A DNA stretch of 64,000 bases from Escherichia phage vB_EcoM_005: sequence record MK295203; one strand, written 5' to 3'. The notes beneath the pieces are model-generated. The model searched no databases and had not been told where the DNA came from. It saw only the letters and a program-made list of their open reading frames with translations. The position numbers and the translations under genes are program-made. Every line of letters begins with the position of its first letter. The stretch's first letter is position 1. Shown here in pieces: positions 1,908-61,316 of the stretch.

Positions 1908-2819
1908 ATGACTCGTACTGAATACATCAATGCCTTTACTACGTATATCACTGCTGCCACCCCTCCATTAACCCCATACGAGGTAATAGTTTCTAATATC
2001 AATAAATGGGTAGACCAAATTGATGAAGCACTATCTGGTTGTTTCAAAGATGAAATCGAAAAGATTGCGAGTCGTTTGTTTATTTCTGATATCACGGAAA
2101 CTTTTAAAGGTTCTCGTTTGCTTTCACGCCTGGTCAATAAGGACATCCTTTCAGAGTTTGGCAAAGAGAAACATCCAGGTTCCAGCCATGTTGTTAGCTA
2201 TCAATGGTTTGGTGACGTTTTAAAAAGCTATGTCAAAATTAAAGGTGCCGATCCTAGTGGCCTATTTCCACAACGTTGGGCTGGTGAATTTAAGGCTAAC
2301 TCCGCATTAATTCTAAAAGCAGCAACCAAAACCTTTGTAAAGGGTGATTGTCGTACTATCCACCCTATGGCTAATTGCATGATTAAAACAAACAGCTATA
2401 AAGGGAAGGTACTTATTTCTATTATTTGGTCGCCTAGTCGGAAACCTAAAGAAGTTGAAGTTTCGAAATACCACGATATTTCCTACAATACCCTGAATAT
2501 GGTAGAACAGGCTTTAGCTTTGATGGATACAGTAGAGAAATATGAGATTCAAGAAATCAAACACCACTTAGGCTGGAAAGGATATGAAGTTTTAGTAACA
2601 GTTCGCGAAATCAAATGCCCTGTTCCAAAAACCGACGCTGAAATTTATCAAGAAAAATGTGAGGAAATTGTGAACACTGATAAAGAGCCTGCAACCTTAG
2701 AAGACCTGATTGATGAGCTGAATAGCCCGAGGCTATTGGCCTGTGCACAAATTACTAAATCCAAGTTACCAGAAGTCGTTGCGGACCGTCTTGAACAGGC
2801 TCTGGAGCTGCTGAAATGA
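1908..2819 (+). CDS. hypothetical protein
   Basis: 303 aa; start set at ATG preceded by GAGGAG RBS and early promoter. Confidence 0.5.
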   Translation: MTRTEYINAFTTYITAATPPLTPYEVIVSNINKWVDQIDEALSGCFKDEIEKIASRLFISDITETFKGSRLLSRLVNKDILSEFGKEKHPGSSHVVSYQWFGDVLKSYVKIKGADPSGLFPQRWAGEFKANSALILKAATKTFVKGDCRTIHPMANCMIKTNSYKGKVLISIIWSPSRKPKEVEVSKYHDISYNTLNMVEQALALMDTVEKYEIQEIKHHLGWKGYEVLVTVREIKCPVPKTDAEIYQEKCEEIVNTDKEPATLEDLIDELNSPRLLACAQITKSKLPEVVADRLEQALELLK

Positions 2820-3148
2820 AACAACGTTTAGCTGAAGATATTGCTTCAACAACCAATACAGGTTTATTGGAATTTATTAAAGCCGAGGATGTTGAAGCTG
2901 AATTGGTTGGTAAGATTCATGGTGATGAGTATAGTGATGTCGTTAATTGGGACGCTGTGATGGCCATGGTTGAACGTCGTGAAAAAGCTTCTAAGAACGT
3001 TCCGAACTGTCCTATGTGTGGAACTGAACAGGTCCAGTTGGTTCAATGGCGGCATAATCCACTTCAGTATAAATGTCGCATGTGTAAACACAAATTTGAG
3101 CGAGACGAAAATGGCAAAGCGCAAAGAATATGTAGAGGCGGCCGATAA
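2816..3148 (+). CDS. zinc-ribbon protein
   Basis: CPMCG...CRMCKHKF cysteine pairs; ATGA overlap with upstream gene. Confidence 0.45.
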
Positions 3149-3347
3149 GGCGGTCCGCGAACTTACTCTAGCTTATTATAAAGAGCACGGTAAATTTCCT
3201 GACAGTTATTCAGTTTTAAAATCTGCTTTAACTCGCTCGTATAATAATATACTATCTGATGTGTATGATTTAAAATATGAGCACATGGAAAAATATGGAA
3301 CAGAACTTGACCGTTCTGAAGCATTCAAACAAATATTAGGAATTTAA
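3111..3347 (+). CDS. hypothetical protein
   Basis: 78-aa ORF from internal ATG of track ORF 2970-3347. Confidence 0.4.
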
Positions 3348-3348
3348 A

Positions 3349-3513
3349 ATGGATGTGATGCCGGAAAAAGGTGTATTTGATGATGAGAAGATTGCTGAAC
3401 TCCTGGCTTCTCTTGGACGTGAATCTCAGGTAGGTTTGACTATGCCTCAGGTATTTGCTCCGGACGGAACTTCTATTGGTGGCTTTGACCAATTGCGAGC
3501 ATATTTCAAATGA
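3349..3513 (+). pseudogene. nrdC: thioredoxin NrdC, C-terminal remnant lacking the CxxC half
   Basis: 54-aa ORF MDVMPEKGVFDDEKIAELL...TMPQVFAPDG..IGGFDQLRAYFK matches my recollection of the C-terminal two thirds of T4 NrdC; no N-terminal CxxC segment in any frame upstream. Confidence 0.5.
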
Positions 3514-3800
3514 TTGAATTAAATGAACAGACTATTTTTCTAGGTGATGGTACCGAAGATGACCTGGAATATAAACTATACGAATATATGGTTTGGCTGG
3601 CTAAAGCAGAAGGTATTGACTTTGCTGTAGCTCACCCGTATGGCGAGAACACCGTTGTAATCGGTGGCACTGCTTATGAAGTCCAATGGCAATACGTTGG
3701 GCTTGAATCCGAAGAATTTGAAGAAGATGAACACGGTGATTGGCACCCAGTCGGCCCTTGGTACTGGGAAGATGGTGAACCCGATTTTGAAGTAGCATAA
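3510..3800 (+). CDS. hypothetical acidic protein
   Basis: 96-aa ORF, ATGA start/stop overlap. Confidence 0.45.
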   Translation: MIELNEQTIFLGDGTEDDLEYKLYEYMVWLAKAEGIDFAVAHPYGENTVVIGGTAYEVQWQYVGLESEEFEEDEHGDWHPVGPWYWEDGEPDFEVA

Positions 3801-3941
3801 AGGCCGTCTGATTGAACATTCGCTTTATGAACTTTCGGATTCAGGTTCTTTACCTGACCTAGAATCCGATTTGATTAAAGCTGCTGCTGACTATATCCAT
3901 TGGCTTGAAGCTCAACTTCGCTTTGCTGATAAGGCGTTCTG

Positions 3942-4118
3942 ATGAAAACTAAATTAGTCTATACCGAAAAGTTGGATGGCAGTAAGGTCTGGAAACTTCT
4001 TATCAAAGGAAGTCCTACCGACCAGTTTATGGCCACCTGTGTAGGATTGTATACTCGCCCTACCAAAAAGATGATTCGTCAATTTAAACGGTTGCATCGT
4101 TCGTTCTATAATGTTTAA
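3942..4118 (+). CDS. hypothetical protein
   Basis: 58-aa ORF (below track cutoff), TGATG overlap with preceding reading frame. Confidence 0.3.
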   Translation: MKTKLVYTEKLDGSKVWKLLIKGSPTDQFMATCVGLYTRPTKKMIRQFKRLHRSFYNV

Positions 4119-4156
4119 TAAATACCTATATCTAATTATTATTAAAGGTATAGGTC

Positions 4157-5131
4157 ATGCAAGATTTCGGACATTGGGCGGTATTTGAAGAAACCGATAT
4201 TAAAAACCATATTGGATTTGTATACGTAATCACTTTTGAAGATGGCAAAAAATATGTAGGTGCTAAAAAGATTTGGAAACGAATTAAAGCTGCACCTTGC
4301 ACATTTAAACGCGGCCCTAAAAAAGGATTTGAAGAATCTGATTGGAAAACCTATACCTCATCATCTAATGAACTAAACGCAATGATAGAAAAGGGTATAA
4401 GTCCTAAAGAGTACCTTATTGTAGGATGGTATCCTACTTGGGGTAAAACTCTTATGGCAGAAATGGAAATGCAATTAGCCAATGATGTTTTACGAGACCC
4501 TATGTGGCTTAACAAGCAAATTGGCGGACATTTCAACCCTAACTGCTTTGACGATTTAACCGCTGACGAAGTTGGCAAGTATATTAAATCTGGGTGGCAA
4601 TTTGGTCGTTCTAAAACAGAAAAACATTCTGTTACCTATAATTGCTCTAAATTTACTATATGGGACTATCAAGAAAATAAAGCAGTGGAAGTTCTAAATC
4701 AAAATGAGTTTGCTCGTAATAATGATTTAAGTAGCAACCATCTAACTAGACTACTTCAAGGAACTCTCGACCTTATTAAAGATCGCTGGGGACTTCCACC
4801 AGATATTGCTCGTCAGCGTTATAAATTTCAGGACGTTTCTTCAGGAACAAAATTTTTATCTAATTCTGAGTTAGAAGAATTTTACGGTATGACTCGCGGT
4901 CAGGCTAACAAAGCCGTTAAAGATGGAAGAGCCGTTAAATTGGTAGTCGAAAGCAAAGAAGACCACATTAAAAAACTTGGCTCTATCGAATTGGTAAAAA
5001 CCGAAAAGACAAAAGTTACGTCTCAAGTAATGCTTAACAGTTTTAAAGATATAGTTAATCCTATGACCACTGCCGAAAAATCAGAAATGATTGAATGGTT
5101 GGAAAGTTATATAACTTATTTGAAATCTTAA
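4157..5131 (+). CDS. GIY-YIG homing endonuclease (seg-like)
   Basis: N-terminal GFVYVITFEDGKKYVGAKK (GIY...YVG) motif; 324 aa typical of free-standing T-even seg genes. Confidence 0.6.
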   Translation: MQDFGHWAVFEETDIKNHIGFVYVITFEDGKKYVGAKKIWKRIKAAPCTFKRGPKKGFEESDWKTYTSSSNELNAMIEKGISPKEYLIVGWYPTWGKTLMAEMEMQLANDVLRDPMWLNKQIGGHFNPNCFDDLTADEVGKYIKSGWQFGRSKTEKHSVTYNCSKFTIWDYQENKAVEVLNQNEFARNNDLSSNHLTRLLQGTLDLIKDRWGLPPDIARQRYKFQDVSSGTKFLSNSELEEFYGMTRGQANKAVKDGRAVKLVVESKEDHIKKLGSIELVKTEKTKVTSQVMLNSFKDIVNPMTTAEKSEMIEWLESYITYLKS

Positions 5132-30109: not shown

Positions 30110-30145
30110 TATAATGGCTCTATTAATTTAGAGTATGATAAGTAC

Positions 30146-30676
30146 ATGGGTTCAGGAGGGCCTTTAAGTAGGGCAAAGGAAAAATACGGGCTGGAAAATT
30201 TCGAAAGAGAAATTCTAGAGTTTTTCCCTAATGAAGACCTAATGAACGAAGCTGAGGCAGCTATAGTAACTAAAGAATTTATTAAAAGACCCGATGTTTA
30301 TAATGCTGTGCCGGGCGGCAGAAGTTTTAGAGTAGGCCCGACGGAAAATTATGATTCTAAACGGCATTCAGAAGTCCAGATAAAAAGCTGGGATAATCCT
30401 GAAAAAAGGGCCAAGCAAGCCAAAACTATAAAAGCTATCGCATGGAAAGAATGGGATAATTTAGAGGAAGTAAAAATCCGACATAAAGAATCCTGCAGTA
30501 AAGCACAAAGAAAACATAAAGCCTGGAAAGATTATAATGTATTAAAAGAGATTTGGGTTAAATTAGGAAAACCTGGATACGGTAGGTTTAATAATGAATT
30601 AATTAAGCTTGGTTACGAAAAAAGAAATTACCAAAGAATGGTAGATGCTTTTAATAAAGAGGAAGAACTAGTATGA
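30146..30676 (+). pseudogene. GIY-YIG homing endonuclease remnant (N-terminally truncated)
   Basis: begins inside the catalytic domain (KYMGSGG...KEKYGLENFEREILE); NUMOD-like linker; C-terminal module shared with the two HNH ORFs downstream. Confidence 0.5.
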
Positions 30677-30927
30677 GTTTTGTAGACAGAGAATTTGCTT
30701 TAAGAGCTTTTCAAACACTGCCAAAATTTAGACAAGTTACCGGAAGCGATTTTAAGCTTAACGCAAGGTGCCCTATTTGTGGTGACTCACAGAAAGACGA
30801 ACATAAAGCTCGTTTTTGGGCTTATCCTGTGAATGATGGTGGCATTATGTTGCACTGCTTCAATTGCGATGCTAGTTTAGGAATTAAGAAGTATCTATAC
30901 GAATACGAGCCTGATTTATATCGTTAA
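30673..30927 (+). CDS. 61: DNA primase gp61, N-terminal zinc-binding domain as a separate ORF
   Basis: FKLNARCPICGDSQKDEHKARFW...HCFNC matches my recollection of the T4 gp61 zinc ribbon; ORF stops after EPDLYR. Confidence 0.8.
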   Translation: MSFVDREFALRAFQTLPKFRQVTGSDFKLNARCPICGDSQKDEHKARFWAYPVNDGGIMLHCFNCDASLGIKKYLYEYEPDLYR

Positions 30928-30940
30928 GATGCCTGTCATC

Positions 30941-31144
30941 GAAAAGCTTAATTTCTGTGAACGATTAGATAGAATGCCAAACGACCATCCTATTATCAAA
31001 TATGTGACACTACGTTGCATTCCTGAAAACAAATGGAATCGTGAAAAGCTTAATTTCTGTGAACGATTAGATAGAATGCCAAAGGACCATCCTATTATCA
31101 AATATGTAACACTACGTTGCATTCCTGAAAACAAATGGAATCGC
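30941..31144. repeat. tandem duplication, 2 x 102 bp (in frame) within primase
   Basis: two copies differing at 3 positions. Confidence 0.8.
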
Positions 31145-31496
31145 TTATGGTTTACTAAAGAATGGCCGGCATTGGTGAACTCTGTCAATCCAGGGACCTA
31201 TTCTAAATTGAAATGCCTGAGCCTCGTTTGGTTATTCCAATTTTCAATAAGAATAAACAAATTGAAAGTTTTCAGGGTCGAGCCTTACGTAAAGATGCTC
31301 CACAAAAATATATTACAATACGTTGTGGTTTACTAAAGAATGGCCGGCATTAGTTAACTCTGTGAATCCAGGGACCTATTCTAAAGAAATGCCTGAACCT
31401 CGTTTGGTTATTCCAATTTTCAATAAGAATAAACAAATTGAAAGTTTTCAGGGTCGAGCCTTACGTAAAGATGCTCCACAAAAATATATTACAATA
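31145..31496. repeat. tandem duplication, 2 x about 178 bp within primase
   Basis: copies nearly identical; copy 1 carries a small indel and the period is not a multiple of 3. Confidence 0.8.
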
Positions 31497-31592
31497 AGTT
31501 GGTGTGGGTAATGGAAGGCCCTATTGACTCTTTGTTTGTTCCGAATGCAATAGCAATTACTGGCGGGTCGTTGGACTTGGCTATGGTTCCAT

Positions 31593-31690
31593 GTAAAGAA
31601 ACTCGTGCCTGGGTAATGGACAATGAACCCCGCCATCCGTTGTAAAGAAACACGTGCCTGGGTAATGGACAATGAACCCCGCCATCCTGA
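31593..31690. repeat. tandem duplication, 2 x 49 bp within primase
   Basis: GTAAAGAAAC(T/A)CGTGCCTGGGTAATGGACAATGAACCCCGCCATCC repeated. Confidence 0.8.
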
Positions 31691-31719
31691 CACAATTAAG
31701 CGTATGCAACGATTAGTTG

Positions 31720-32370
31720 ATGCTGGCGAAAGGGTTCTATTCTGGGACAAGAGGAAAATTAAGAGGTTCTAAGCGGTCTTTATCATATTATACGGAAGAA
31801 CACCATGTTATACCTAGATGTATGAATGGTTCTGATGATAAAAACAATTTAGTTGCTTTATTGCCAAGAGAACACTTTGTAGCTCATAGGCTTTTAACAA
31901 AAATATATCCCGAAGTAAAAGGTCTACATTATGCTGTTAATTTAATGAGATATAATAAAGGAGTTAAATTAACTAGTAGAACTATAGCCACGTTAAGAGA
32001 AAATAACGCTAAAGCATTTTCAGGAAAAAATAACCCGATGTTTGGTAAACCTTCCTGGATTAGAGGGATGAAAACTCCTGAAGAAACTAAAGCCAAAATG
32101 CGCCTGGCTCATAAAGATAAAATTATATCTGATGAAGCCAAGGCCAATATGAGTAAAGCTAGAAAAGGAAGATTTAGTGGTAAAGATTCCCCTAGATATG
32201 GTTTGCCAAATCCTAGGCGTGGAGAAATATGGAATAGTTACGATATGCTTTATGAATTATGGGTTTACAATAATAAACCTAAACGCACCAAATTTAATAA
32301 AATAGCTGTTGATAATGGATATCCTGATATTTGTTATCGACGAATGATAGAAAACTTTAATAGGAAATAA
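31720..32370 (+). CDS. HNH homing endonuclease
   Basis: EEHHVIPRCMNGSDDKNNLVALLPREHFVAH (HNH motif); NUMOD-like repeats; first ATG lies inside the last codons of the primase fragment in another frame. Confidence 0.65.
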   Translation: MLAKGFYSGTRGKLRGSKRSLSYYTEEHHVIPRCMNGSDDKNNLVALLPREHFVAHRLLTKIYPEVKGLHYAVNLMRYNKGVKLTSRTIATLRENNAKAFSGKNNPMFGKPSWIRGMKTPEETKAKMRLAHKDKIISDEAKANMSKARKGRFSGKDSPRYGLPNPRRGEIWNSYDMLYELWVYNNKPKRTKFNKIAVDNGYPDICYRRMIENFNRK

Positions 32371-32374
32371 TATA

Positions 32375-32512
32375 ATGGCATTTTTTAACGAATGTAGTGG
32401 TTTGATTTCTGGTGTTGATAAAGCTGAGGAAGCTTATTTTAATGCTCTGATTCACGAAGATAATTTATTTATTCGCTTTAATCTAACAGTTTATAATTAT
32501 CTAACTTATTAA
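32375..32512 (+). pseudogene. dCTPase gp56 N-terminal fragment (diverged partial duplicate)
   Basis: MAFFNECSGLISGVDKAEEAYFNALIHED then out-of-family tail; 52 bp identical to the start of the next copy. Confidence 0.5.
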
Positions 32513-32535
32513 TGAATTGAAAAAGGAAAAATATA

Positions 32536-32955
32536 ATGGCACACTTTAACGAATGCGCAAACCTGATTGCTGGTGTTGATAAAGCTGAGGAAGCTTATTT
32601 TAATGCTCTGATTCACGAAGATAAGGACCCTCTGCAGGTTATGTTGCGTGAACAGAAAGATTGTATTGACGATGAATTCCGTGAACTTCTGACTTCCCTC
32701 GGTGAAATGTCTAAAGGTGAGAAAGATGCATCTGCTGTATGGAAAAAATGGAAAGCCCGTTACCCGGAAGCACAAGCCAAACCTATTTCAGAAATGTCTC
32801 CTGAAGACCAGCTTGAAATTAAATTTGAACTCATTGATATTATGCACTTCGTATTCAATATGGCTATTGGCTTGAATATGTCGGCTGAAGAAATGTTTAA
32901 ACTTTATTACCTGAAAAATAAACACAACTTTGAACGCCAGGACAATGGATATTAA
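32536..32955 (+). CDS. 56: dCTP pyrophosphatase gp56 (MazG-like), copy 1
   Basis: 139 aa; MAHFNECA..., KDCIDDEFRELLTSLGEMS, EDQLEIKFELIDIMHF, KLYYLKNKHNF match my recollection of T4 gp56; lacks about 32 internal residues relative to T4. Confidence 0.8.
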   Translation: MAHFNECANLIAGVDKAEEAYFNALIHEDKDPLQVMLREQKDCIDDEFRELLTSLGEMSKGEKDASAVWKKWKARYPEAQAKPISEMSPEDQLEIKFELIDIMHFVFNMAIGLNMSAEEMFKLYYLKNKHNFERQDNGY

Positions 32956-33379
32956 TTTCAAATCCGTTCTTAAAGAAAAGTTCCCGCAATGGGAACTTTT
33001 AGAAGATAAACCTGAATATAACCGTCATCCTGATGACTTGGCTACTGCAGGTGAAGTTGTTGATTGGTTGCGCAATCAGAAAGATTATATTGATGATGAA
33101 TTCCGCGAACTTCTGACTTCTCTTGGTGGCATGAGCAATGGCGAAAAAGATGCGAGCGCTGTATGGAAGCCTTGGAAAGCTCAACATGCTGAACGTCGTG
33201 AAACCCTGATTAACGATTTGTCTCCTGAAGACCAGCTCGAAATTAAATTCGAAATGATTGATATTCTGCACTTTGTTCTGAATATGTTCCAAGGTCTTGG
33301 ACTGACTGCTGAAGAAATCTTTAAACTGTATTACCTGAAAAATAAACACAACTTTGAACGCCAGGACAATGGATATTAA
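32945..33379 (+). CDS. 56: dCTP pyrophosphatase gp56 (MazG-like), copy 2 with a different N-terminus
   Basis: 144 aa; carries the HPDDLATAGEVVDWLRNQKDYIDDEF segment missing from copy 1 but lacks the MAHFNEC N-terminus; last 90 nt identical to copy 1. Confidence 0.7.
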   Translation: MDINFKSVLKEKFPQWELLEDKPEYNRHPDDLATAGEVVDWLRNQKDYIDDEFRELLTSLGGMSNGEKDASAVWKPWKAQHAERRETLINDLSPEDQLEIKFEMIDILHFVLNMFQGLGLTAEEIFKLYYLKNKHNFERQDNGY

Positions 33380-33412
33380 TTTCAAATCCGTTCTTAAAGA
33401 AAAGTTCCCGCA

Positions 33413-34210
33413 ATGGGAACTTTTAGAGGTCATGATTACTTAAAAATTATAGATAAGTATAAACTAAACGTCCATACCAAATCTAAAACTGAAGCTCATC
33501 ATATACTTCCGAAGTGTGCATTTCCAGAATACAGCGATTTTAAAATCTCTCCTTGGAATAGGGTGTATCTTCCTATATACCAACACATATATGTTCATTA
33601 TCTTTTGTGCTCAACTAAGGTGTCGGGTTTGCTTAATGCATTCCAGAGAATGACACTAACAAATAGTGCCCAGTTTAAGAAGCTTTCTGATTTAGAGAAA
33701 GACCTTACTATTAAGTTATGGGCCGATAAACGTGGGGAGTGGATAGAGCAAGACATTCTCCGTAAAAGAAAATCCTTTATGTATTCTAATTTTGATTTCT
33801 GGTATAATGACTGGATTTCGCGGGATATGCCTCGCTATCGAAGATATTGGGGAGTTTTGGTTGAAGAAAATAATCCGGAAGTTTTAGGTACCCACAAAAA
33901 TAGTTTATTGACAGTGGTAAAAGATTTTTGTTTGAGATACGCAGAAGAACATAATTTATCTGAAGAAGAAGTTTTGAGTCTTCAAAAATTAAAACAGTCT
34001 TCAGAAAAAGCTTTAAAAGATAAAGGAAAAACTTTAAGTAAAACTGCTAGAGGCAATCAACTCAAATGGAATTATGAAACTGAGCTTAGGAATTTATGGA
34101 TTGCTAATAACAAACCAAAATATGTGAATTTCAGAAAGCTAGTGGTTAGCTTAGGCTACCCGGATGAAAATTATATAAACATGATAAAGAGGTTTGAAAA
34201 TGGGTTCTGA
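33413..34210 (+). CDS. HNH homing endonuclease
   Basis: TEAHHILPKCAFPEYSD...NRVYLP...HIYVH (HNH motif); start codon lies within a 92-bp repeat derived from gene 56. Confidence 0.65.
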   Translation: MGTFRGHDYLKIIDKYKLNVHTKSKTEAHHILPKCAFPEYSDFKISPWNRVYLPIYQHIYVHYLLCSTKVSGLLNAFQRMTLTNSAQFKKLSDLEKDLTIKLWADKRGEWIEQDILRKRKSFMYSNFDFWYNDWISRDMPRYRRYWGVLVEENNPEVLGTHKNSLLTVVKDFCLRYAEEHNLSEEEVLSLQKLKQSSEKALKDKGKTLSKTARGNQLKWNYETELRNLWIANNKPKYVNFRKLVVSLGYPDENYINMIKRFENGF

Positions 34211-34316
34211 GATGTTGCTTTGGGCCATAGTCTTCCTTTTATTCTTAATTGGGTTGGGGATTTATAGAATTACTGGCCTATTAGAACGACAGTTTAAAGA
34301 TGGCCAGTAATTAAGT

Positions 34317-35584: not shown

Positions 35585-35963
35585 ACTAGAATTCTTTGTT
35601 CGTGATTCTGCCAGACAAACACGTCCTTATGATGCTACGCCGTGTCTTATCCTTGTCGATAATGGTACGAATTCTATAACCCAGTTAGAAACACGATTAA
35701 AAGATATTTGTTATCGTTATCCGGCAGACCCATATACCGAAGGAACAATGGACCTTTTCTATAAAGATACCGATAGAATGTCCAATGAACGTCTTAAAGG
35801 CCGTACTTATCTGATTTCCGCTACCGAAGACCTTACTGAAGTCGAACGTCAGATTTGGAAACACTTTGATATTGGATTGCGCTTTACCATGACTGAAGAC
35901 GCTATTTTTGATGCTAAGGTACGAGCTCGTATGTACGAATACGGTCCTATCGGTGGTTACTAA
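35571..35963 (+). CDS. hypothetical protein
   Basis: 130-aa ORF. Confidence 0.45.
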
Positions 35964-53761: not shown

Positions 53762-53977
53762 ATGAACAAGCTGAATATTGTTAATGAACTTCGTCGTTGT
53801 GCAGAACCTACTCAAGAAGGTTGGGACATTTGGTACCATGGCGCTTATCTCGGCACTATTGTTAAGATTAAAGCAGGTAAATACTTAATCATCCGTGGTG
53901 GTTCTGAAGCTTCTATGGGAATTCGCAAGAACTTCATGGCGGCAATCAGCACCTTTGTCTTTATGGCAGCGTATTAA
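53762..53977 (+). CDS. hypothetical protein
   Basis: 71-aa ORF. Confidence 0.4.
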   Translation: MNKLNIVNELRRCAEPTQEGWDIWYHGAYLGTIVKIKAGKYLIIRGGSEASMGIRKNFMAAISTFVFMAAY

Positions 53978-53989
53978 AGGATGGTTCAA

Positions 53990-54328
53990 ATGATTCCGAT
54001 GGAACTTAACTGGGACGGTGAAGGTCATTCCCTTAAATTGATTGAAGAACAACGTAATGATTGGGACGAGCGTGTAGCTTTGGTAAGCGGTATTAAGAAA
54101 ATTTACCAACTCGATCTCCAGATTGATAACGTTTATCTTGAATTTGGTATGCAGTTATTACGATTTCTTGAGATTATTTTTATTGAAAAGGTAAATATAA
54201 CTTCGTATGGCGAGGGCCAAACAGTTAATATTAAATTATCATCCTATTATAAAGGCGAGTTAATTGAAACTGCCACCAAAATTCAAGAATTTGCTAAAGA
54301 TAACGGCCATAAGGTGATTTTCAAATGA
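53990..54328 (+). CDS. hypothetical protein
   Basis: 112-aa ORF with AAGGA RBS. Confidence 0.4.
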
Positions 54329-54813
54329 ATCCATTAAAAGGTAAAGCATTATCCTTTAAAGACCGTATGGCTTTATTAGATAAAGCTCTTTCTCGTGAGA
54401 CGCCTGAAAGTCTAGCAGCTAAATTACGGGCATATGGTGATTACACCGAATATACAGAAGAGGATGTTTTAGAAGAGGTTCCTGAAATCTGTTGGCAAAT
54501 CGCTCATTGGAACAATAATGAAAAATATCAGCGCAGGATTGTGTGCGCAGCCAACCGCTTTAAGTTAAAAGACGGTGGGACTCTGGTTATTCCTGGCGCT
54601 CGTCATTATTCTAAAGATATGGCTGAAGTTCTCGACCAGGTAAGTGATAAACTTGTATCAGACCATGTTTGTGGTGATGACCAAGGATTTATTGACCAAT
54701 ATTCAAACTATTGGACTCGCGAAGAAGCAATGATTATTGCGACTTATGCTAATCAAGTTCGTATTGAACGTGGTGGCAGTGAAAAAGAACTTTACTCTGA
54801 GGACCTTTACTAA
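54325..54813 (+). CDS. hypothetical protein, tandem paralogue A
   Basis: 162 aa; [31 protein letters not shown]...[20 protein letters not shown]. Confidence 0.5.
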
Positions 54814-54907
54814 TGAATCTTAAACAACTCCAGATTGATGCAATCGAAGCCCATATTAATCATGTTAAACGTCTTACCCTCTGGCAACGTGTTAAAGGAT
54901 GGTTCAA

Positions 54908-55396
54908 ATGAATCCATTAAAAGGTAAAGAATTATCCTTTAAACACCGTTTGGCTTTATTAGATAAAGCTCTTTCTCGTGAGACGCCTGAAAGTCTAGCA
55001 GCTAAATTACAGGCCTATGGTGATTACACCGAATATACGGAAGAGGATGTTCTAAAAGAAGTCCCTGAAATCTGTTGGCAAGTGGCCCATTGGTGTGAAG
55101 ACCAAAAATTCCAGCGTCGAATTGTATGTGCTGCAAACCGTTTTAAGTTAAAAGATGGTGGAACTCTGGTTATTCCTGCGACACGTCATTACTCTAAAGA
55201 TATGGGTGCGGTTATCAAGGCAGTTGAAGATAAATTGGTAACACGATTTGTCTGTGATGATGACCAAGGCTTTGTCGACCAATATGGTAATTATTGGACT
55301 CGTGAAGAAGCAATGATAATTGCAACATATGCTAATCAGGTTCGTATTGAACGTGGTGGTAGTGAAAAAGAACTTTACTCTGAGGACCTTTACTAA
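54908..55396 (+). CDS. hypothetical protein, tandem paralogue B
   Basis: 163 aa; same domain as 54325-54813, mosaic of identical and diverged blocks. Confidence 0.5.
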
Positions 55397-55417
55397 TGAA
55401 TCTTAAACAACTCCAGA

Positions 55418-55678
55418 TTGATGCAATCGAAGCCCATATTAATCATGTTAAACGCACTGAATGCCACGGTGGAAGATAATTGGGGAACTTATGTAAACCA
55501 ACCGGCTTGGGATGCTTTAGACCACGAATATATAAAGAATATTAGTTCTAAGACAATCCACGGGAATATGGAAGGGTTGAAGCCATTCCTACGTGATATG
55601 TATATTGCAACTAATAAAGAAATTATCAGCTCTCTTGAATATCAATTAAGGAAATTACGTGAACAATCTGGTAGCTAA
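55418..55678 (+). CDS. hypothetical protein (second copy at 56899-57111)
   Basis: 86-aa ORF; C-terminal 70 residues repeated nearly identically 1.4 kb downstream. Confidence 0.4.
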   Translation: MMQSKPILIMLNALNATVEDNWGTYVNQPAWDALDHEYIKNISSKTIHGNMEGLKPFLRDMYIATNKEIISSLEYQLRKLREQSGS

Positions 55679-55800
55679 GCACGACTCATAAGGACAAGAA
55701 GAAAAACTTTAAAGAGTCTAAACGTAAACAGAAACATAAGGGTAAAGGCTATGAGTCATAACTTAGAGAATACCGTAACAGGCATGCGTACACGGGACAT

Positions 55801-55829
55801 GTTTACAATCCCTAAGGATATGTTAGTAT
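55801..55829 (+). promoter_or_regulatory. T4-type early promoter (copy 1)
   Basis: GTTTAC 55801-55806, 17-nt spacer, TAGTAT 55824-55829. Confidence 0.5.
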
Positions 55830-55870
55830 AGCCCTATCAGATAATGACGTACTGAATTGAAGAGAATATT

Positions 55871-56005
55871 ATGACTAAAATTGAAATCGTTTCCGAAATT
55901 GCCACTATTGTTTCCATTTTGATTAAAACGGATTGTGAAGACATCATGCAACGTCGTGATGAGTTTATGAACATGTTTACAATCCCTAAGGATATGTTAG
56001 TATAG
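55871..56005 (+). pseudogene. asiA 5' duplicate, truncated at the repeat junction
   Basis: MTKIEIVSEIATIVSILIKTDCEDIMQRRDEF then reads into the repeated promoter sequence and stops. Confidence 0.5.
55975..56003 (+). promoter_or_regulatory. T4-type early promoter (copy 2)
   Basis: identical to the 55801-55829 promoter. Confidence 0.5.
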
Positions 56006-56044
56006 CCCTATCAGATAATGACGTACTGAATTGAAGAGAATATT

Positions 56045-56320
56045 ATGACTAAAATTGAAATTGTTTCCGAAATTGCTACTATTGTTTCCATTTTGATTAA
56101 AACGGATTGTGAAGACATCATGCAACGTCGTGATGAGTTTATTGCCTTTTTGAATGAGTTGGGTATTCGTAATGAACATGGAAAGGAACTTAATGGTTTG
56201 TCTTATAACAAATTATTTAAGTCTTTAACTGAAGATGAACGTGACACTCTTATTGAGCAATTTAATGAAGGATATGAAGATATACACCGTTATTTAATGA
56301 TGTATACCTCCAATTTCTAA
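56045..56320 (+). CDS. asiA: anti-sigma-70 factor AsiA
   Basis: 91 aa; TIVSILIK...FIAFLNE.G..HEG..LN..S..K....LTE...TLIEQFNEGYE..HRYL.MYT matches my recollection of T4 AsiA. Confidence 0.85.
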   Translation: MTKIEIVSEIATIVSILIKTDCEDIMQRRDEFIAFLNELGIRNEHGKELNGLSYNKLFKSLTEDERDTLIEQFNEGYEDIHRYLMMYTSNF

Positions 56321-56643
56321 CGTGTTCGACCTAATGTCCTTCCGGCTTGACCGCACATAGACGAAAGTCTAGGAAATCCTAAATCCGGTTTGGCGCCTTT
56401 TTGAATGAGTTAGGTATTCGTAATGAACATGGAAAGGAACTTAATGGTTTGTCTTATAACAAATTATTTAAGTCTTTATCTGAAGATGAGCGTGAAACTC
56501 TTATTGAGCAATTTAATGAAGGATATGAAGATATACACCGTTACTTAATGATGTATACCTCCAATTTCTAACGTGTTCGACCTAATGTCCTGCCCGGCTT
56601 GACCACACATAGACGAAAGTCTAGGAAATCCTAAATCCGGTTT
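56144..56643. repeat. tandem duplication, 2 x about 250 bp (asiA 3' half plus the convergent holin 3' end)
   Basis: copy 1 56144-56392, copy 2 56395-56643, about 97% identical. Confidence 0.8.
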
Positions 56644-56907
56644 GATATCATACCAGTACAACGATATCGAGCCGGCGTAGACGTTATCCAAATTAAAAAA
56701 CGGGCATGAAAACATATACGTGAATTGTGTTTTCTTCTTTGTAGGAAGGAATACAGTTTCAGTACTTGATTCAAAGATATCATACCAGTACAACGATATC
56801 GAGCCGGAGTAGACGTTATCCAAATTAAAAAACGGGCATGAAAACATATACGTGAATTGTGTTTTCTTCTTTGTAGGAAGGAATACAGTTTCGATGTCAT
56901 GGTGGAA
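56644..56907. repeat. tandem duplication, 2 x 132 bp (in frame, 44 codons of holin)
   Basis: copies differ at one position. Confidence 0.8.
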
Positions 56908-57111
56908 GACAACTGGGGAACTTATGTCAACCAACCGGCTTGGGATGCCTTAGACCACGAATATATAAAGAATATTAGTTCTAAGACAATCCATGGTAAT
57001 ATGGAAGGGTTGAAGCCGTTCCTACGTGATATGTATATTGCAACTAATAAAGAAATTATCAGCTCTCTTGAATATCAATTAAGGAAATTACGTGAACAAT
57101 CTGGTAGCTAA
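56899..57111 (+). CDS. duplicate copy of the 55418-55678 ORF, embedded within the holin region
   Basis: 70-aa ORF about 93% identical at DNA level to 55469-55678. Confidence 0.35.
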   Translation: MVEDNWGTYVNQPAWDALDHEYIKNISSKTIHGNMEGLKPFLRDMYIATNKEIISSLEYQLRKLREQSGS

Positions 57112-57133
57112 GCACGAGGGTACTTGATTCAAA

Positions 57134-57339
57134 ATAGTTCCCGTTAACTCCCGCCATATATTCTACTGACGTTTTGTCAATTGGAAACCCTCCCGTATTT
57201 TTTGCGTCTACCGTTTCCGGTAATTTACCCTCGTAGATAGTTCCCGTTAACTCCCGCCATATATTCTATTGACGTTTTGTCAATTGGAAACCCTCCCGTG
57301 TTTTTTGCGTCTACCGTTTCCGGTAATTTACCCTCGTAG
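57134..57339. repeat. tandem duplication, 2 x 103 bp within holin
   Basis: copies differ at 2-3 positions; period not a multiple of 3. Confidence 0.8.
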
Positions 57340-57343
57340 GCCA

Positions 57344-57461
57344 CCATATCCACAAAATAATTCATGTTGGTTGGTCTAAAAGAATATATTGCTGTGAAGG
57401 AGCAACCATATCCACAAAATAATTCATGTTGGTTGGTCTAAAAGAATATATTGCTGTGAAG
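57344..57461. repeat. tandem duplication, 2 x about 62 bp within holin
   Basis: 56 bp identical in both copies; creates the stop ending the N-terminal holin ORF. Confidence 0.8.
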
Positions 57462-57763
57462 TCTGCGCCTGAAGAAGAATGCACTATTCGGAGCTGCTCG
57501 ATAGCCGCAATTTTAAATCTATTGTCCTGGTCTTGTCTAATCATTTCAGTATAAGAGGCATAAGTTGTCTCTTTATAAAAGTTTAGAATATACTCGCCTT
57601 TATACCAAACCAATGCCATAAAGAACAATAATATCACGACTAGGACCCGGGAAAAAACTACTTTCCCGGAAGAAGTATCTTTAAAAATTCTATCAAGAAG
57701 TCCAAAAAGTAGGTCTGATAATGATATTCCTACTTTTGGTTCCATACTTTTCTCCTTTAAAGA

Positions 57764-57787: not shown

Positions 57788-58561
57788 TTATAACCAAGAG
57801 CCGTAGATAGTGCCTGTAGCGCCCCATGAAGGAGAACTTCCGAATACCGCTCTACCAGGAGCACCACCACCCGACCTGGATAAGTTATTACCCCATCCAT
57901 TGCCACCAGCGCCTCCAGCATCACCGCCATTGCCACCGCCAAATTGGCTTGTATTACCACCGCCACCTGGACCATCATAACTAGCATTGCCGCCTGGCCA
58001 ATTAACACCACCGCCGCCGAGACCAAATGGTCGACCGCCTCCACCACCTGCTGTAGAATTTGCAGGCCAACTATTCTGTAATGATACGGCACCACCGCCA
58101 CCACCACCGGAGGCTATCACACCATAATTCCAAATGCGAAGTCGTCCACCAATATCATTTTGGATTACGTCACCACCATTAGTGCCTGGGCTTCCATTTA
58201 CTGTACCGTTGCCACCTCGGCCCCACATATGAACACCACCATGAATATTCAAAGTAACATATTCGTTAGGGGTATCACCGTACATAAAGAACAATGGAAC
58301 ATCTTTAGTATATGATACTAAGTTGCCTGTGATATTAAACACTATAGGAGCACCACCGGCTTCAAAACAACGGTCACGAAACCATTGACCGTTAAAGTTA
58401 TGGTCTGCGCCAAGGGTATGAATAACCTCAACAGAACGGCCTATCATATTACTCATCCAAAACGGAGCGCCCATTCTCAATCGCTGGGCGGCGCCGCCCA
58501 TCCAATTTTGTCCTGTATTAACTACTGCAGACCATCCTACCCACGGTCCTTCAACTGCCAT
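57788..58561 (-). CDS. 38: tail-fibre adhesin gp38 (T2-type, glycine-rich)
   Basis: 257 aa with multiple polyglycine stretches (GGGGGG, GGGGG) typical of T2-like gp38 receptor-recognition adhesins; directly downstream of 37. Confidence 0.8.
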
Positions 58562-58573
58562 ATAAACCTCCAA

Positions 58574-58592: not shown

Positions 58593-61316
58593 TTATTTTA
58601 ACAATGATTTAATTAATGCTTTAAGTTCTTCAATCTCTGATTTCAATTCTGCTATTTCTGCAGTGTGCTCATTGATTGCAGCCGTATTTAAACCAATTAC
58701 ACCGTTATAGTTTAAACGAAGTAAAGCTTCACCATTGGGGTCGCCTTCAACCAATTCAGGTAAAATAGCTTGAACTTCTTGAGCAATTAAACCAGCGTTA
58801 GGTTCCCATTTCTGATTACCTTCTTCGTCAGTTCCAGCGTTTCTGCATATAAGTGTAACCGTTAATTTTAGAAAGCTTCTGGGAAGCATTTTCAAATTTA
58901 ACAAGGTCTTTTTTAACACGAATATCAGAACGGACATAAACATCTCGAACATACGTAGAATAGGCATCGCTTTGTTGGACTAAATGGCCAAAAGAAATAA
59001 TAGCCCTTCCTGTTTCAGTCCACAAAGCACCATGGGTATCCCAAAGACCTTCTATTGAACATCGCAACACCTTGTGGAGATAAAATTAACCTCGCCATTA
59101 GGGTTAATATTAATACCGCCTTGGGATTGGAAGCTCCAGAAGGCTAAACCGTTATCAGCACCACCATTACCTACATACCAGTTATCAACGCCACCTTTTT
59201 TACCCTTAACATAACCTGCTTCATCTGCTGGATAATCAATAACAACAGCATCCGAGTTGGTTTTAAGAGTTAAGCGGCCGGTCATCGTGTCGCCTTCTTT
59301 AGAAACACGAGTAGCAATGGCATCGCGAATATTAGTTACGTCGCCTGCTGAAGTAAATGTTTTCCAGATATCAGAGAAAATATTACCATTTCGGGCAATA
59401 GTAGCTTCACCACCACCGATCTGTACGTTATCCGGGAAGTTAACTGTACCATCAGCATTAAATCTTGAGGTATGACCTCCGGTCCCGTCTTCTTTAAGAT
59501 GGTGTAAAACAAAAGTACCAGATTCTATTTCAGTACCTAAAGACCAAACAGCTTTTCCTTGTAAGAATTTTTGCTTAACGATAGGATAATATTTACTTAC
59601 AGCGTCATCATCAATTTCTTGGAAAACAGGAGCGGCTTGTGCATATTGAATATCATAACCACCTGCACCTGCACCATGTCCACTGAATTTAATATAACCG
59701 TTTGCCGCAAAAGAAGCATAACTCAAATCTAGGTCAGGGCTTTCTTCTGAACGGCGGAAAATAGCACCGTAGTCATCGTTCCAAATTCTAAGGGCATTGA
59801 CAGCATTACCAGCAATAGTGCCAGAGGCGTTAACTTCTTTACCGACGTTGATGCTTTCGTTTACATTCATGCCACCATTTAAATGGGCTTCGACGTTATT
59901 ATCAGTCTTACGCTGAATATAATGCATCCAACCAACGTCATCAGATATTTCCATTACGTTTTTGCGGTCACCGGCGACATTAGTAAAGGTGTTACCCCAA
60001 ACGTTGATAGTCATGTTATCAACTGAACTATTTCCTGTAGTATTTCCTCTGAACATCAGAGTAGATGCATTGTTGCGGCCGTCAATATTAACCGAACCAC
60101 CAACAACATCAATATTACCAGGAGTAACTAACAAACCACCGTGAGTATTAACGTTTGTCGTGCCCTTACCACGGAAATAGTGATGATAATTTCCACCTTG
60201 ATAATAACCTAAAAGAGTTTGACCGTCGCCATACGCGTTATTATCATGATAAGTGACAACCGTCGCCAAAGCATAGTTTTCCGACGGAGGAGTGGTTAAA
60301 TCGGTACCGTTTACAGAATAACCCATAACCATTTTTCTAAGACTGGTGGTTTCTGCCGGGCCGTTCAGGAAAGTTCTTGTTCCGTTGTTTACATTAAAGA
60401 AATATCCGTCTTGGTACCATTGTAAGCCGGTATCATTATCGCCAAGAGCAATTGAAGCTGTTCCTAATTCAGAATATCCTTTAGAACCGTTCGGAAGACC
60501 GACCGACATGGAATGACCAGCTTTCAATCCACCAGACCATGTAAATGACCAAAGGTAGGCGTCTAATCCATCGCCTGCATACCAGGTTATCCCATCATTG
60601 TCTTTAACTTCATGGAATATACCTGCTCCTACAGCATTTCGCATAACACGAAGGTGGTTAATAGCCGTTTCACTTTCTGCCAATGGGCTATTATCGGCCA
60701 TTGAATAGATATCATAATCGCCAGCCTTCTTCCCGTTTGTAATAACTTTATCGGTCAGAATTTGTGGAGACGAAATAGATTTCCATGCTGATACTTCGGG
60801 CGAAGTAAATAGGCCGCTGCCTGAAAATGCATAAGTGCTTTCGCTACCAGCGGCGTAGTCTTGAACCCTGATATTAACTACCTGAGTTGTCAAACCTGCA
60901 TTATTAGGAGAAAAGATAATACCACGTTCACGTGATGCACCGTCAAAGAATCTCAAATGAGAAGTTGAAGCACTCTTAGAAATAAGTTCTCCGCCTTCAG
61001 TCATTATCTGACCTGCAGCAATAATATCACGAGTTACACGAGCAATACCGGTTAAATTAAAATCACCTGTTTGGGTAAAGGTACCATTTAGGGTATAATC
61101 ACCGGTTTGATTGTAGTTACCGTTATGAATAACGTTTCCGTCGATATTACCACCTTTAGCAAAGCCAAGGTCGATGATGGCACCGGTATCGTCTTTAGTA
61201 AAAAGTAATCGGTCCTTTAAGTTAATAGCCAGTTCGCCTTCAGCCAACTGGGCCGGTGTTGGACGTACACCGGCCACTTTACTTCTTTTAAATTGGATTT
61301 GCTTTAAAGTAGCCAT
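58593..61316 (-). CDS. 37: long tail fibre distal subunit gp37 with C-terminal S74-type intramolecular chaperone domain, two apparent frameshifts near the C-terminus
   Basis: N-terminus [17 protein letters not shown]...[13 protein letters not shown] matches my recollection of T4 gp37; main ORF 59052-61316; chaperone domain (RSDIRVKKD autocleavage-type motif, [17 protein letters not shown]) continues in two other frames (58828-59070, 58593-58967). Confidence 0.8.

What the first reader, a model, noticed from the sequence alone, without database searches (positions are those of the whole stretch)
56545..57745. Holin t cannot be translated as one protein in the sequence as given
The N-terminal 127 codons end at a stop created by a 62-bp duplication; the middle and C-terminal holin segments are present but displaced by a 103-bp duplication, a 359-bp inserted block and an in-frame 44-codon duplication. 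Holin is required for lysis, so either the assembly is wrong here or the sequence comes from a defective or heterogeneous population.
Basis: partly seen in the sequence, partly recalled or inferred. Interest (0 to 1): 0.55.

Follow-up and report, generated by a model that had tools for sequence, protein, structure and literature searches.

The report
Scrambled holin gene is an assembly artefact
The phage's lysis gene looks broken only because pieces of two closely related phage genomes were laid side by side when this sequence was built; each version alone gives a full-length holin reading frame (one identical to a known phage's), so this is a sequence-quality problem and not biology.

Summary
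In this Dhakavirus (T4-like) window, holin t (minus strand) is split by a 62-bp, a 103-bp and a 132-bp (44-codon) duplication and a ~359-bp block, and the longest piece is a 127-codon N-terminal ORF.

The cause is not a mutated holin. Blocks between 53.96 and 57.75 kb sort into two series, and each tiles intact reference phages contiguously:
- Series A is 99.9-100% identical to phage vB_EcoM_FB.
- Series B is a second natural lineage, closest to AnYang/IME08 at 98.5%.

Stitching either series restores a full-length holin frame and an intact AsiA. The A holin is identical to FB's; the B holin tail is altered by a 1-bp indel. The 224 bp "inserted" into t is the displaced next piece of the A series.

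The damage is window-wide:
- A second cluster (30.1-34.4 kb) scrambles primase gp61 and dCTPase gp56 in the same way.
- Fifteen sites each lose exactly 99 bp net, including 33 residues of DNA polymerase.

No public collection searched contains the junctions. Verdict: a sequence-construction artefact, most likely mis-assembly of a mixed phage population (a "false heterotype duplication"). It is not a real feature and interest is low.

The parts
57462..57745 (-). Single-copy 5' part of holin t (about codons 1-95: cytoplasmic N-terminus, transmembrane helix, start of the periplasmic domain); lineage A
   Evidence: 284/284 nt identical to vB_EcoM_FB. It is part of the 127-aa ORF that matches PF11031 positions 4-114.
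57401..57461 (-). Block A6: t sequence equal to FB locus L002 4104-4164; second copy of the 62-bp repeat. The jump back from B4 to A6 shifts the frame and creates the stop after codon 127.
   Evidence: one filler G at 57400.
57237..57399 (-). Block B4: lineage-B t sequence equal to FB 4002-4164
   Evidence: 97.5% to FB and 98.8% to PSD9. Its alleles at 57269, 57300 and 57342 are shared with AnYang/IME08.
57119..57235 (-). Block A5: lineage-A t sequence equal to FB 3987-4103; first copy of the 103-bp repeat
   Evidence: 117/117 identical to FB; filler G at 57236.
56894..57117 (+). Block A2: 224-bp fragment of the arn.2-like gene (FB_0254, FB locus 3001-3224), displaced into t. It is the exact continuation of block A1.
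   Evidence: 224/224 identical to FB and PSD9, while the resident copy at 55461-55684 is only 96% identical to it. A1+A2 align to FB as one 1143-nt HSP at 99.91%.
56776..56893 (-). Block A4: lineage-A t sequence equal to FB 3870-3987; second copy of the 44-codon repeat
   Evidence: 118/118 identical to FB.
56395..56775 (.). Block B3: lineage-B sequence equal to FB 3622-4001, holding the 3' part of asiA (+) and the 3' part of t (-). It carries a private 1-bp insertion at 56592 that shifts the last ~10 codons of the B holin.
   Evidence: 97.4% to FB; allele table; stitched B holin is 225 aa with an altered C-terminus.
55969..56392 (.). Block A3: lineage-A sequence equal to FB 3446-3870, holding a complete asiA (56045-56320, +) and the 3' end of t (-)
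   Evidence: 99.8% to FB; the 91-aa ORF matches Pfam AsiA PF09010.
55797..55968 (+). Block B2: lineage-B asiA upstream region and first ~98 nt of asiA (FB 3448-3620)
   Evidence: the 44-aa ORF 55871-56005 begins with the AsiA N-terminus.
54882..55797 (+). Block B1: lineage-B arn.4 end, arn.3 and arn.2-like genes (FB 2088-2121 + 2444-3354; lacks the FB_0256 gene)
   Evidence: 88.5% to FB, 94.2% to PSD2002.
53958..54876 (+). Block A1: lineage-A copy of the same arn region (FB 2082-3000), placed directly before B1; 5-nt filler CCCTC at 54877-54881
   Evidence: 918/919 identical to FB; junction sequence.

Best explanation
The holin locus is a construction artefact of the sequence, most likely a mis-assembly or mis-scaffolding of a sample holding at least two Dhakavirus lineages.

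Fragments of an FB/WG01-like lineage (A) and of a second lineage (B, AnYang/IME08-like in this region) were both written into one linear sequence, roughly in order of their genome position, instead of being collapsed or separated. Every switch between lineages therefore looks like a jump back of 60-580 bp, that is, a tandem 'duplication'. One A fragment was also misplaced by about 2 kb.

Shown: the two-series tiling, the natural origin of both allele sets, restoration of full-length asiA and t frames when either series is stitched (the A holin identical to FB's), and the same damage elsewhere in the window.

Inferred: that the step at fault was assembly or scaffolding of mixed reads, and that the real phage or phages carry a normal ~218-aa T4-type holin (short cytoplasmic N-terminus, one transmembrane helix, periplasmic C-terminal domain that is the target of antiholin RI) and lyse normally.
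For: (1) Mapped to vB_EcoM_FB, the blocks form two series that each abut exactly in reference coordinates. Series A covers 2082-3000 | 3001-3224 | 3446-3870 | 3870-3987 | 3987-4103 | 4104-4448 at 99.8-100% identity. Series B covers 2088-3354 | 3448-3620 | 3622-4001 | 4002-4164 at 88-98%.
(2) Stitched A gives single alignments to FB (1143 nt at 99.91%; 718 nt at 99.86%), a 217-aa holin identical to FB's and a 91-aa AsiA.
(3) Stitched B (717 nt) aligns in one piece over 100% of its length to 48 natural phages, best AnYang at 98.5%.
(4) 13 of 17 A/B substitution differences are alleles present in other Dhakaviruses, so the copies are two lineages and not a fresh duplication or noise.
(5) Both stitched holins match PF11031, A over the full profile (4-233) and B over 4-206.
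(6) All 84 matching deposited phage records need several pieces to cover this stretch (6 in each of the best 15), and those whose annotation names the gene show one holin.
(7) A second cluster at 30.1-34.4 kb has the same jump-back repeats and two tandem gp56 versions.
(8) Fifteen junctions each lose exactly 99 bp net with 0-3 filler bases. They include 33 residues of gp43 DNA polymerase and two sites in gp46. Such a fixed size points to software, not biology.
(9) The junction 40-mers are absent from the viral, metagenome and genome collections.
(10) The pattern matches the described class of 'false heterotype duplications' (PMC9516828).
Against: - No reads are available, so read depth and read-pair support for the junctions could not be examined.
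- There are no N gaps between the duplicated copies, which are common in scaffold-level false duplications. Only 0-5 filler bases are present.
- Blocks as short as 61-118 bp, and exact abutment within each series, are unusual for standard assemblers.
- I cannot name a program that produces net losses of exactly 99 bp.
- Identity to FB does not change at the 99-bp junctions significantly more than at random sites (P about 0.06-0.08), so those junctions are not shown to be joins between lineages.
- Neither the source record nor an undamaged parent could be found.
Confidence: 0.8

Rival explanations
1. The sequence was edited or generated computationally rather than mis-assembled from reads. Examples are a simulated or otherwise post-processed genome in which fixed-size 99-bp pieces were removed and fragments of a second Dhakavirus genome were inserted near their homologous positions. 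The holin disruption would again be non-biological.
For: - All fifteen losses are exactly 99 bp net, with 0-3 arbitrary filler bases, at irregular spacing of 478-12,990 bp.
- The lost segments are nowhere else in the window.
- The inserted A fragments are 99.9-100% identical to one deposited genome, FB.
- No proteins of the window, damaged or intact, are on record in the gene-position collection.
Against: - The backbone's divergence from known phages looks natural. gp43 shows 90 nucleotide mismatches against FB but only 13 amino-acid changes.
- Series B carries natural alleles.
- In cluster 1 the extra material is not FB-like, so more than one donor would be needed.
- Nothing in the sequence can separate this reading from a poor assembly pipeline.
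Confidence: 0.14
2. The rearrangement is real. This would be a packaged, lysis-defective genome produced by repeated template switching or illegitimate recombination between two co-infecting Dhakaviruses, and maintained by complementation from a helper phage in a mixed lysate.
For: - Two lineages evidently co-occurred in the source.
- T4-type phages recombine intensively during mixed infection (established knowledge).
- All fifteen 99-bp losses keep the reading frame.
Against: - It would need at least nine backward jumps within 3.8 kb, each resuming exactly where the same lineage had stopped, plus a second such cluster.
- It would also need fifteen deletions of identical size in essential genes such as gp43, gp46 and gp37.
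- There are no inversions.
- No biological process is known that removes exactly 99 bp at unrelated sites.
- Such a genome would lack working holin and primase genes and would carry 33-codon gaps in its polymerase, gp46 and tail-fibre genes.
Confidence: 0.03
3. These are genuine recent tandem duplications within a single phage genome, of the kind known from T4 rII-region duplications, that later diverged.
For: The repeats are direct, local and mostly adjacent.
Against: - The copies differ at sites where one copy carries FB alleles and the other carries AnYang/IME08/C6 alleles. Divergence after a duplication would give private changes, not alleles shared with other lineages.
- The copy of the arn.2-like fragment inside t is 100% FB-like, while the resident copy belongs to another lineage.
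- The duplications destroy an essential gene.
Confidence: 0.01

Closest known systems
False heterotype duplications in genome assemblies (Ko et al. 2022, Genome Biol 23:205, PMC9516828)
   Same: Two divergent haplotypes of one locus are both written into a single linear assembly, next to each other. This produces apparent tandem duplications, fragments of one gene inserted into another, and broken or falsely gained genes. The copies carry haplotype-specific alleles (for the definition; for the match).
   Different: That class was described for diploid vertebrate genomes, with haplotigs of kilobases to megabases that are often separated by N gaps. Here the 'haplotypes' are two phage lineages in one sample, the blocks are only 61-919 bp, they are interleaved many times, and there are no gaps. 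Read-depth criteria could not be applied.
Bacteriophage T4 holin T (gene t; Pfam PF11031 Phage_holin_T)
   Same: - All parts of the protein are present, and the stitched versions match the family profile (A over its full length).
- The gene lies between gp38 and asiA, convergent with asiA, as in related phages.
- The domain plan expected from T4 (cytoplasmic N-terminus, one transmembrane helix, periplasmic C-terminal domain bound by antiholin RI; PMC11413866) is recognisable.
   Different: As written in the window there is no single ORF. The longest piece stops after 127 codons, and the periplasmic domain is split and partly doubled.
Genuine tandem duplications in T4 (rII-region duplications from illegitimate recombination; own knowledge)
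   Same: Direct, local repeats in a T4-type genome.
   Different: True duplications start as identical copies from one genome with a single novel joint. Here the copies are different natural alleles, there are nine joints in 3.8 kb, and essential genes are destroyed.

Membership tests
T4-type holin T (PF11031) | Significant match to the Phage_holin_T profile | tested here: met
   The fragments score 120.7, 37.8 and 81 bits. Stitched A scores 220.3 bits over profile positions 4-233 and stitched B scores 213.5 bits.
T4-type holin T (PF11031) | One continuous ORF of about 218 codons | tested here: not met
   In the window as given, the ORF ends after 127 codons, and the remaining pieces lie in separate ORFs of 46 and 129 aa. 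The feature is met only after either block series is stitched.
T4-type holin T (PF11031) | Conserved position: downstream of gp38 on the same strand, convergent with and overlapping the end of asiA | tested here: met
   gp38-like ORF at 57788-58573(-), t start at 57745(-), asiA at 56045-56320(+). The order is the same as in EcWhh-1, FB, PSD9, AnYang and IME08.
T4-type holin T (PF11031) | Lysis function and regulation by antiholin RI | not testable with these tools
   Needs a lysis assay. The domain plan is taken from PMC11413866.
False heterotype duplication (assembly artefact) | Duplicated copies lie adjacent on the same sequence | tested here: met
   Eight direct-repeat families lie within 54.5-57.5 kb, with spacings of 62-1433 bp.
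False heterotype duplication (assembly artefact) | The copies carry haplotype-specific alleles rather than being identical or differing by random errors | tested here: met
   13 of 17 substitution differences are alleles found in other natural Dhakaviruses. One series is 99.9-100% FB-like and the other is closest to AnYang/IME08.
False heterotype duplication (assembly artefact) | Removing one haplotype restores a normal collinear locus | tested here: met
   Stitched A and stitched B each align to natural genomes as single HSPs, and each encodes an intact asiA and a full-length t frame; the B tail is altered by a 1-bp indel.
False heterotype duplication (assembly artefact) | About half read depth over the copies, with discordant or missing read pairs at the joints | not testable with these tools
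   No reads are available for this window.
False heterotype duplication (assembly artefact) | Assembly gaps (N runs) between the duplicated copies | tested here: not met
   The window holds no N. The joints carry only 0-5 filler bases. PMC9516828 lists this as a frequent feature and not an obligatory one.
Genuine tandem duplication by illegitimate recombination | Both copies derive from the same genome (identical at birth; later differences private) | tested here: not met
   The differences are shared with other lineages. The displaced 224-bp copy is 100% FB-like, while the resident copy is 96% identical to it and closest to AnYang.

The most novel reading that the evidence does not exclude
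The window is a faithful read-out of a real DNA molecule: a heavily rearranged, non-viable mosaic made by serial template switching between two co-infecting T4-like phages during recombination-dependent replication, packaged and carried along by helper phage. It would be a T4-type 'defective interfering' genome.
Probability: 0.02. Interest if true: 0.6.

Novelty: not a real feature. Interest (0 to 1): 0.08.

Why it matters
The finding matters as quality control only. This sequence should not be used to infer gene content, gene gain, holin variation or lysis phenotype for this phage. At least three regions are unreliable: 30.1-34.4 kb, 53.9-57.8 kb, and the fifteen sites of 99-bp loss. Automatic annotation would call false extra asiA, gp56 and arn genes, a truncated holin, and shortened polymerase, gp46 and gp37 proteins.

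It also shows that the source probably held at least two Dhakavirus lineages. That is useful to whoever owns the sample, who should plaque-purify and re-assemble. If the structure were real after all, it would be a remarkable record of recombination between co-infecting phages, but the evidence is strongly against that.

Tried and rejected
- I searched two junction 40-mers (57220-57259, and the t/arn.2 joint around 56893|56894) in viral contigs, the t/arn.2 joint also in genome contigs and metagenome contigs. There were no matches.
- I looked up the exact artefact-specific proteins: the 127-aa holin N-terminus, the 129-aa doubled C-terminus, and gp43 with the 33-aa gap. I also looked up intact backbone proteins (gp38, MotA) in the gene-position collection. 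None is on record.
- I searched a gp38-specific 34-mer in viral and metagenome contigs and found nothing. The best deposited relative around gp38 is at most 93% identical. The source and an undamaged parent therefore could not be recovered.
- I tested whether the 99-bp-loss junctions are joins between lineages, by looking for an abrupt change of identity to FB. The result is inconclusive: the mean shift is 0.065 against 0.042 at random sites, P about 0.06-0.08.
- I considered dropped text lines or fixed-size storage chunks as the cause of the 99-bp losses. I rejected this because the junction spacing is irregular, from 478 to 12,990 bp.
- I considered relocation of the lost segments. I rejected this because none of them is found anywhere in the window.
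- I considered noise or sequencing error as the source of the differences between copies. I rejected this for most sites because the alleles are shared with natural phages. It remains possible for the 4 private B changes, including the 1-bp insertion at 56592.
- Inverted repeats: none in 54.5-58.5 kb. The inversion-rich chimeras typical of whole-genome amplification are therefore unlikely (own knowledge of that artefact).

Full report
**What is in the sequence**

The window is a T4-like phage of the genus Dhakavirus (Straboviridae). Clean stretches are about 94% identical to the nearest deposited genomes. Holin t lies on the minus strand and starts at 57745, downstream of a gp38-like adhesin gene and convergent with asiA.

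- a 127-codon N-terminal ORF at 57362-57745 that ends in a frameshifted tail;
- a 62-bp repeat (57340-57399 / 57402-57461);
- a 103-bp repeat (57134-57236 / 57237-57339);
- a repeat spaced 132 bp, or 44 codons (56644-56760 / 56776-56892);
- a block of about 359 bp (56776-57134) separating the middle and C-terminal holin segments.

Pfam identifies the three ORF fragments as successive parts of Phage_holin_T.

**What the blocks are**

The 4 kb around t covers only about 3.16 kb of any intact relative. All 84 matching deposited records need several pieces to cover the finding's coordinates (6 in each of the best 15), and where the gene is named they show one holin.

I mapped the region block by block to vB_EcoM_FB (locus L002; t at 3795-4448, asiA at 3523-3798). 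The blocks fall into two series.

| Series A block | Window coordinates | FB coordinates |
|---|---|---|
| A1 | 53958-54876 | 2082-3000 |
| A2 | 56894-57117 | 3001-3224 |
| A3 | 55969-56392 | 3446-3870 |
| A4 | 56776-56893 | 3870-3987 |
| A5 | 57119-57235 | 3987-4103 |
| A6 and onward | 57401-57745 | 4104-4448 |

| Series B block | Window coordinates | FB coordinates |
|---|---|---|
| B1 | 54882-55797 | 2088-3354 (without one FB-specific gene) |
| B2 | 55797-55968 | 3448-3620 |
| B3 | 56395-56775 | 3622-4001 |
| B4 | 57237-57399 | 4002-4164 |

Series A is 99.8-100% identical to FB and series B is 88-98% identical. Within each series the blocks abut to the base. The order in the window is A1 B1 B2 A3 B3 A4 A2 A5 B4 A6. 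Every change of series therefore appears as a jump back, that is, as a tandem duplication. The joints carry 0-5 stray bases.

**Direct tests of the two-lineage reading**

- Stitching the A blocks gives single alignments to FB: 1143 nt at 99.91% for A1 plus the displaced A2, and 718 nt at 99.86% for A3-A6. It also gives a 217-aa holin identical to FB's and an intact 91-aa AsiA.
- Stitching the B blocks gives a 717-nt sequence that aligns in one piece over its full length to 48 natural phages. The best matches are AnYang, IME08 and C6 at 98.3-98.5%, closer than FB at 97.5%. It encodes an intact AsiA and a full-length holin.
- Of the 17 substitution differences between the overlapping A and B copies, 13 are alleles also present in other Dhakaviruses. 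B is therefore a second natural lineage and not a noisy or freshly duplicated copy of A.
- Four B changes are private. One is a 1-bp insertion at 56592 that alters the last ~10 codons of the B holin; it may be a sequencing error.
- The 224 bp 'inserted' into t is 100% FB-like and is the exact continuation of block A1. The resident copy of that gene, at 55461-55684, belongs to the other lineage.

No holin sequence is missing or mutated in a meaningful way. Two full-length alleles have been shuffled together.

**The damage is not specific to the holin**

A second cluster at 30.1-34.4 kb shows the same behaviour:
- primase gp61 is cut up by 102-, 178- and 49-bp jump-back repeats at 95-98% identity;
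- a 712-bp mobE block 99.5% identical to IME08/E33 is followed by a jump back into a mobE-less version of the same junction;
- two versions of dCTPase gp56, 81% identical to each other, sit in tandem.

Aligning the whole window to the FB genome also revealed fifteen places where the window is contiguous apart from 0-3 filler bases but 99-102 reference bases are missing. The net loss is exactly 99 bp every time. The missing stretches are ordinary coding DNA and occur nowhere else in the window. The loss at 35708|35710 is also seen against IME08, E33 and C6.

These losses fall in DNA polymerase gp43, where a clean 33-residue gap sits in a protein otherwise 95% identical to FB's. They also fall twice in gp46, in gp37 and in other genes. 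Further losses of 94-98 bp flank the holin region, at 53959 and 55797.

A fixed deletion size at unrelated sites is a signature of software and not of biology. By contrast, the backbone's substitutions look natural: gp43 has 90 nucleotide mismatches to FB but only 13 amino-acid changes.

**Most likely explanation**

The sequence was built from material holding at least two Dhakavirus lineages. Fragments of both were written into one linear sequence roughly in positional order, with one fragment (A2) misplaced. This is the phage-scale equivalent of the 'false heterotype duplications' documented in vertebrate assemblies, where divergent haplotypes are both retained side by side and create false gene gains and genes interrupted by pieces of neighbours (PMC9516828).

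I put about 0.8 on mis-assembly or mis-scaffolding of a mixed sample. I put about 0.14 on some other computational manipulation, because the exact 99-bp losses and the perfect FB identity of series A would also fit an edited or simulated sequence. I put about 0.03 on a real rearranged defective genome and about 0.01 on genuine duplications that later diverged.

Under all but the last two, the underlying phage or phages carry a normal T4-type holin. [quoted passage not shown]

**What I could not do**

- No reads are available, so depth and read-pair support were not testable.
- I could not find the source record, an independent occurrence of any junction, or an undamaged parent genome.
- I could not identify the program or step that yields net losses of exactly 99 bp.
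- The test of whether those junctions coincide with lineage switches was inconclusive.

**Verdict**

The holin defect is not a real biological feature. Interest is low, apart from flagging this sequence as unreliable in at least three regions.

Noticed in passing
window 1440|1442, 2782|2784, 3351|3355, 4562|4565, 5818|5822, 12296|12298, 12774|12775, 16915|16917, 19485|19486, 24503|24507, 35708|35710, 44940|44942, 46089|46090, 46748|46750, 59738|59740: At fifteen junctions the window lacks 99-102 bp of ordinary coding sequence present in FB, with 0-3 filler bases. The net loss is exactly 99 bp (33 codons, frame kept) every time. Genes hit include gp43 DNA polymerase (33-aa gap), gp46 (twice) and gp37. 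The lost segments are nowhere else in the window. The cause is unknown; the fixed size points to software.
   Followed up: partly
window 30134-34306: This is a second cluster of jump-back repeats. Primase gp61 is fragmented by 102-, 178- and 49-bp repeats. A mobE block (31752-32463) is 99.5% identical to IME08/E33. Two tandem gp56 dCTPase versions (32536-32955 and 32930-33379) are 81% identical to each other. Segments that are only 72-80% identical to the four references they were mapped to (FB, IME08, E33, C6) are mixed with ones at 95-97%.
   Followed up: partly
window 30146-30676 and 33413-34210: Two ORFs (176 aa and 265 aa) flank the gp61/gp56 region. They have no Pfam hit and no counterpart in FB, IME08, E33 or C6 at these positions. 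The 265-aa ORF has HNH-like and mob-like sequence motifs by eye. They may be free-standing homing endonuclease genes of the diverged lineage.
   Followed up: no
window 53959|53958 and 55797: Two further window-specific losses flank the holin region. One of 96-98 bp lies inside the arn.4-like gene, and one of 93-94 bp removes most of a small gene (the FB_0252 homologue). Both are seen against all four references used. They are close to 99 bp but not equal to it, and they do not preserve the frame.
   Followed up: partly
window 56592: A private 1-bp insertion (with an adjacent substitution at 56593) in the lineage-B copy changes the last ~10 codons of the B holin to ...GQAGQDIRSNTLEIGGIHH. None of the seven references has it. 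It may be a sequencing error.
   Followed up: partly
window 59052-59106: The gp37 distal tail-fibre gene lacks about 480 bp relative to FB, and about 460 bp relative to UPEC01, near its gp38-proximal end. This could be natural variation of the hypervariable tip or another artefactual loss.
   Followed up: no
window 38787|38789, 40156|40157, 52847|52849, 20007|20021: These are other clean junctions with net losses of 127, 255, 152 and 132 bp relative to FB. I did not check against other references whether they are natural indels or further artefacts.
   Followed up: no
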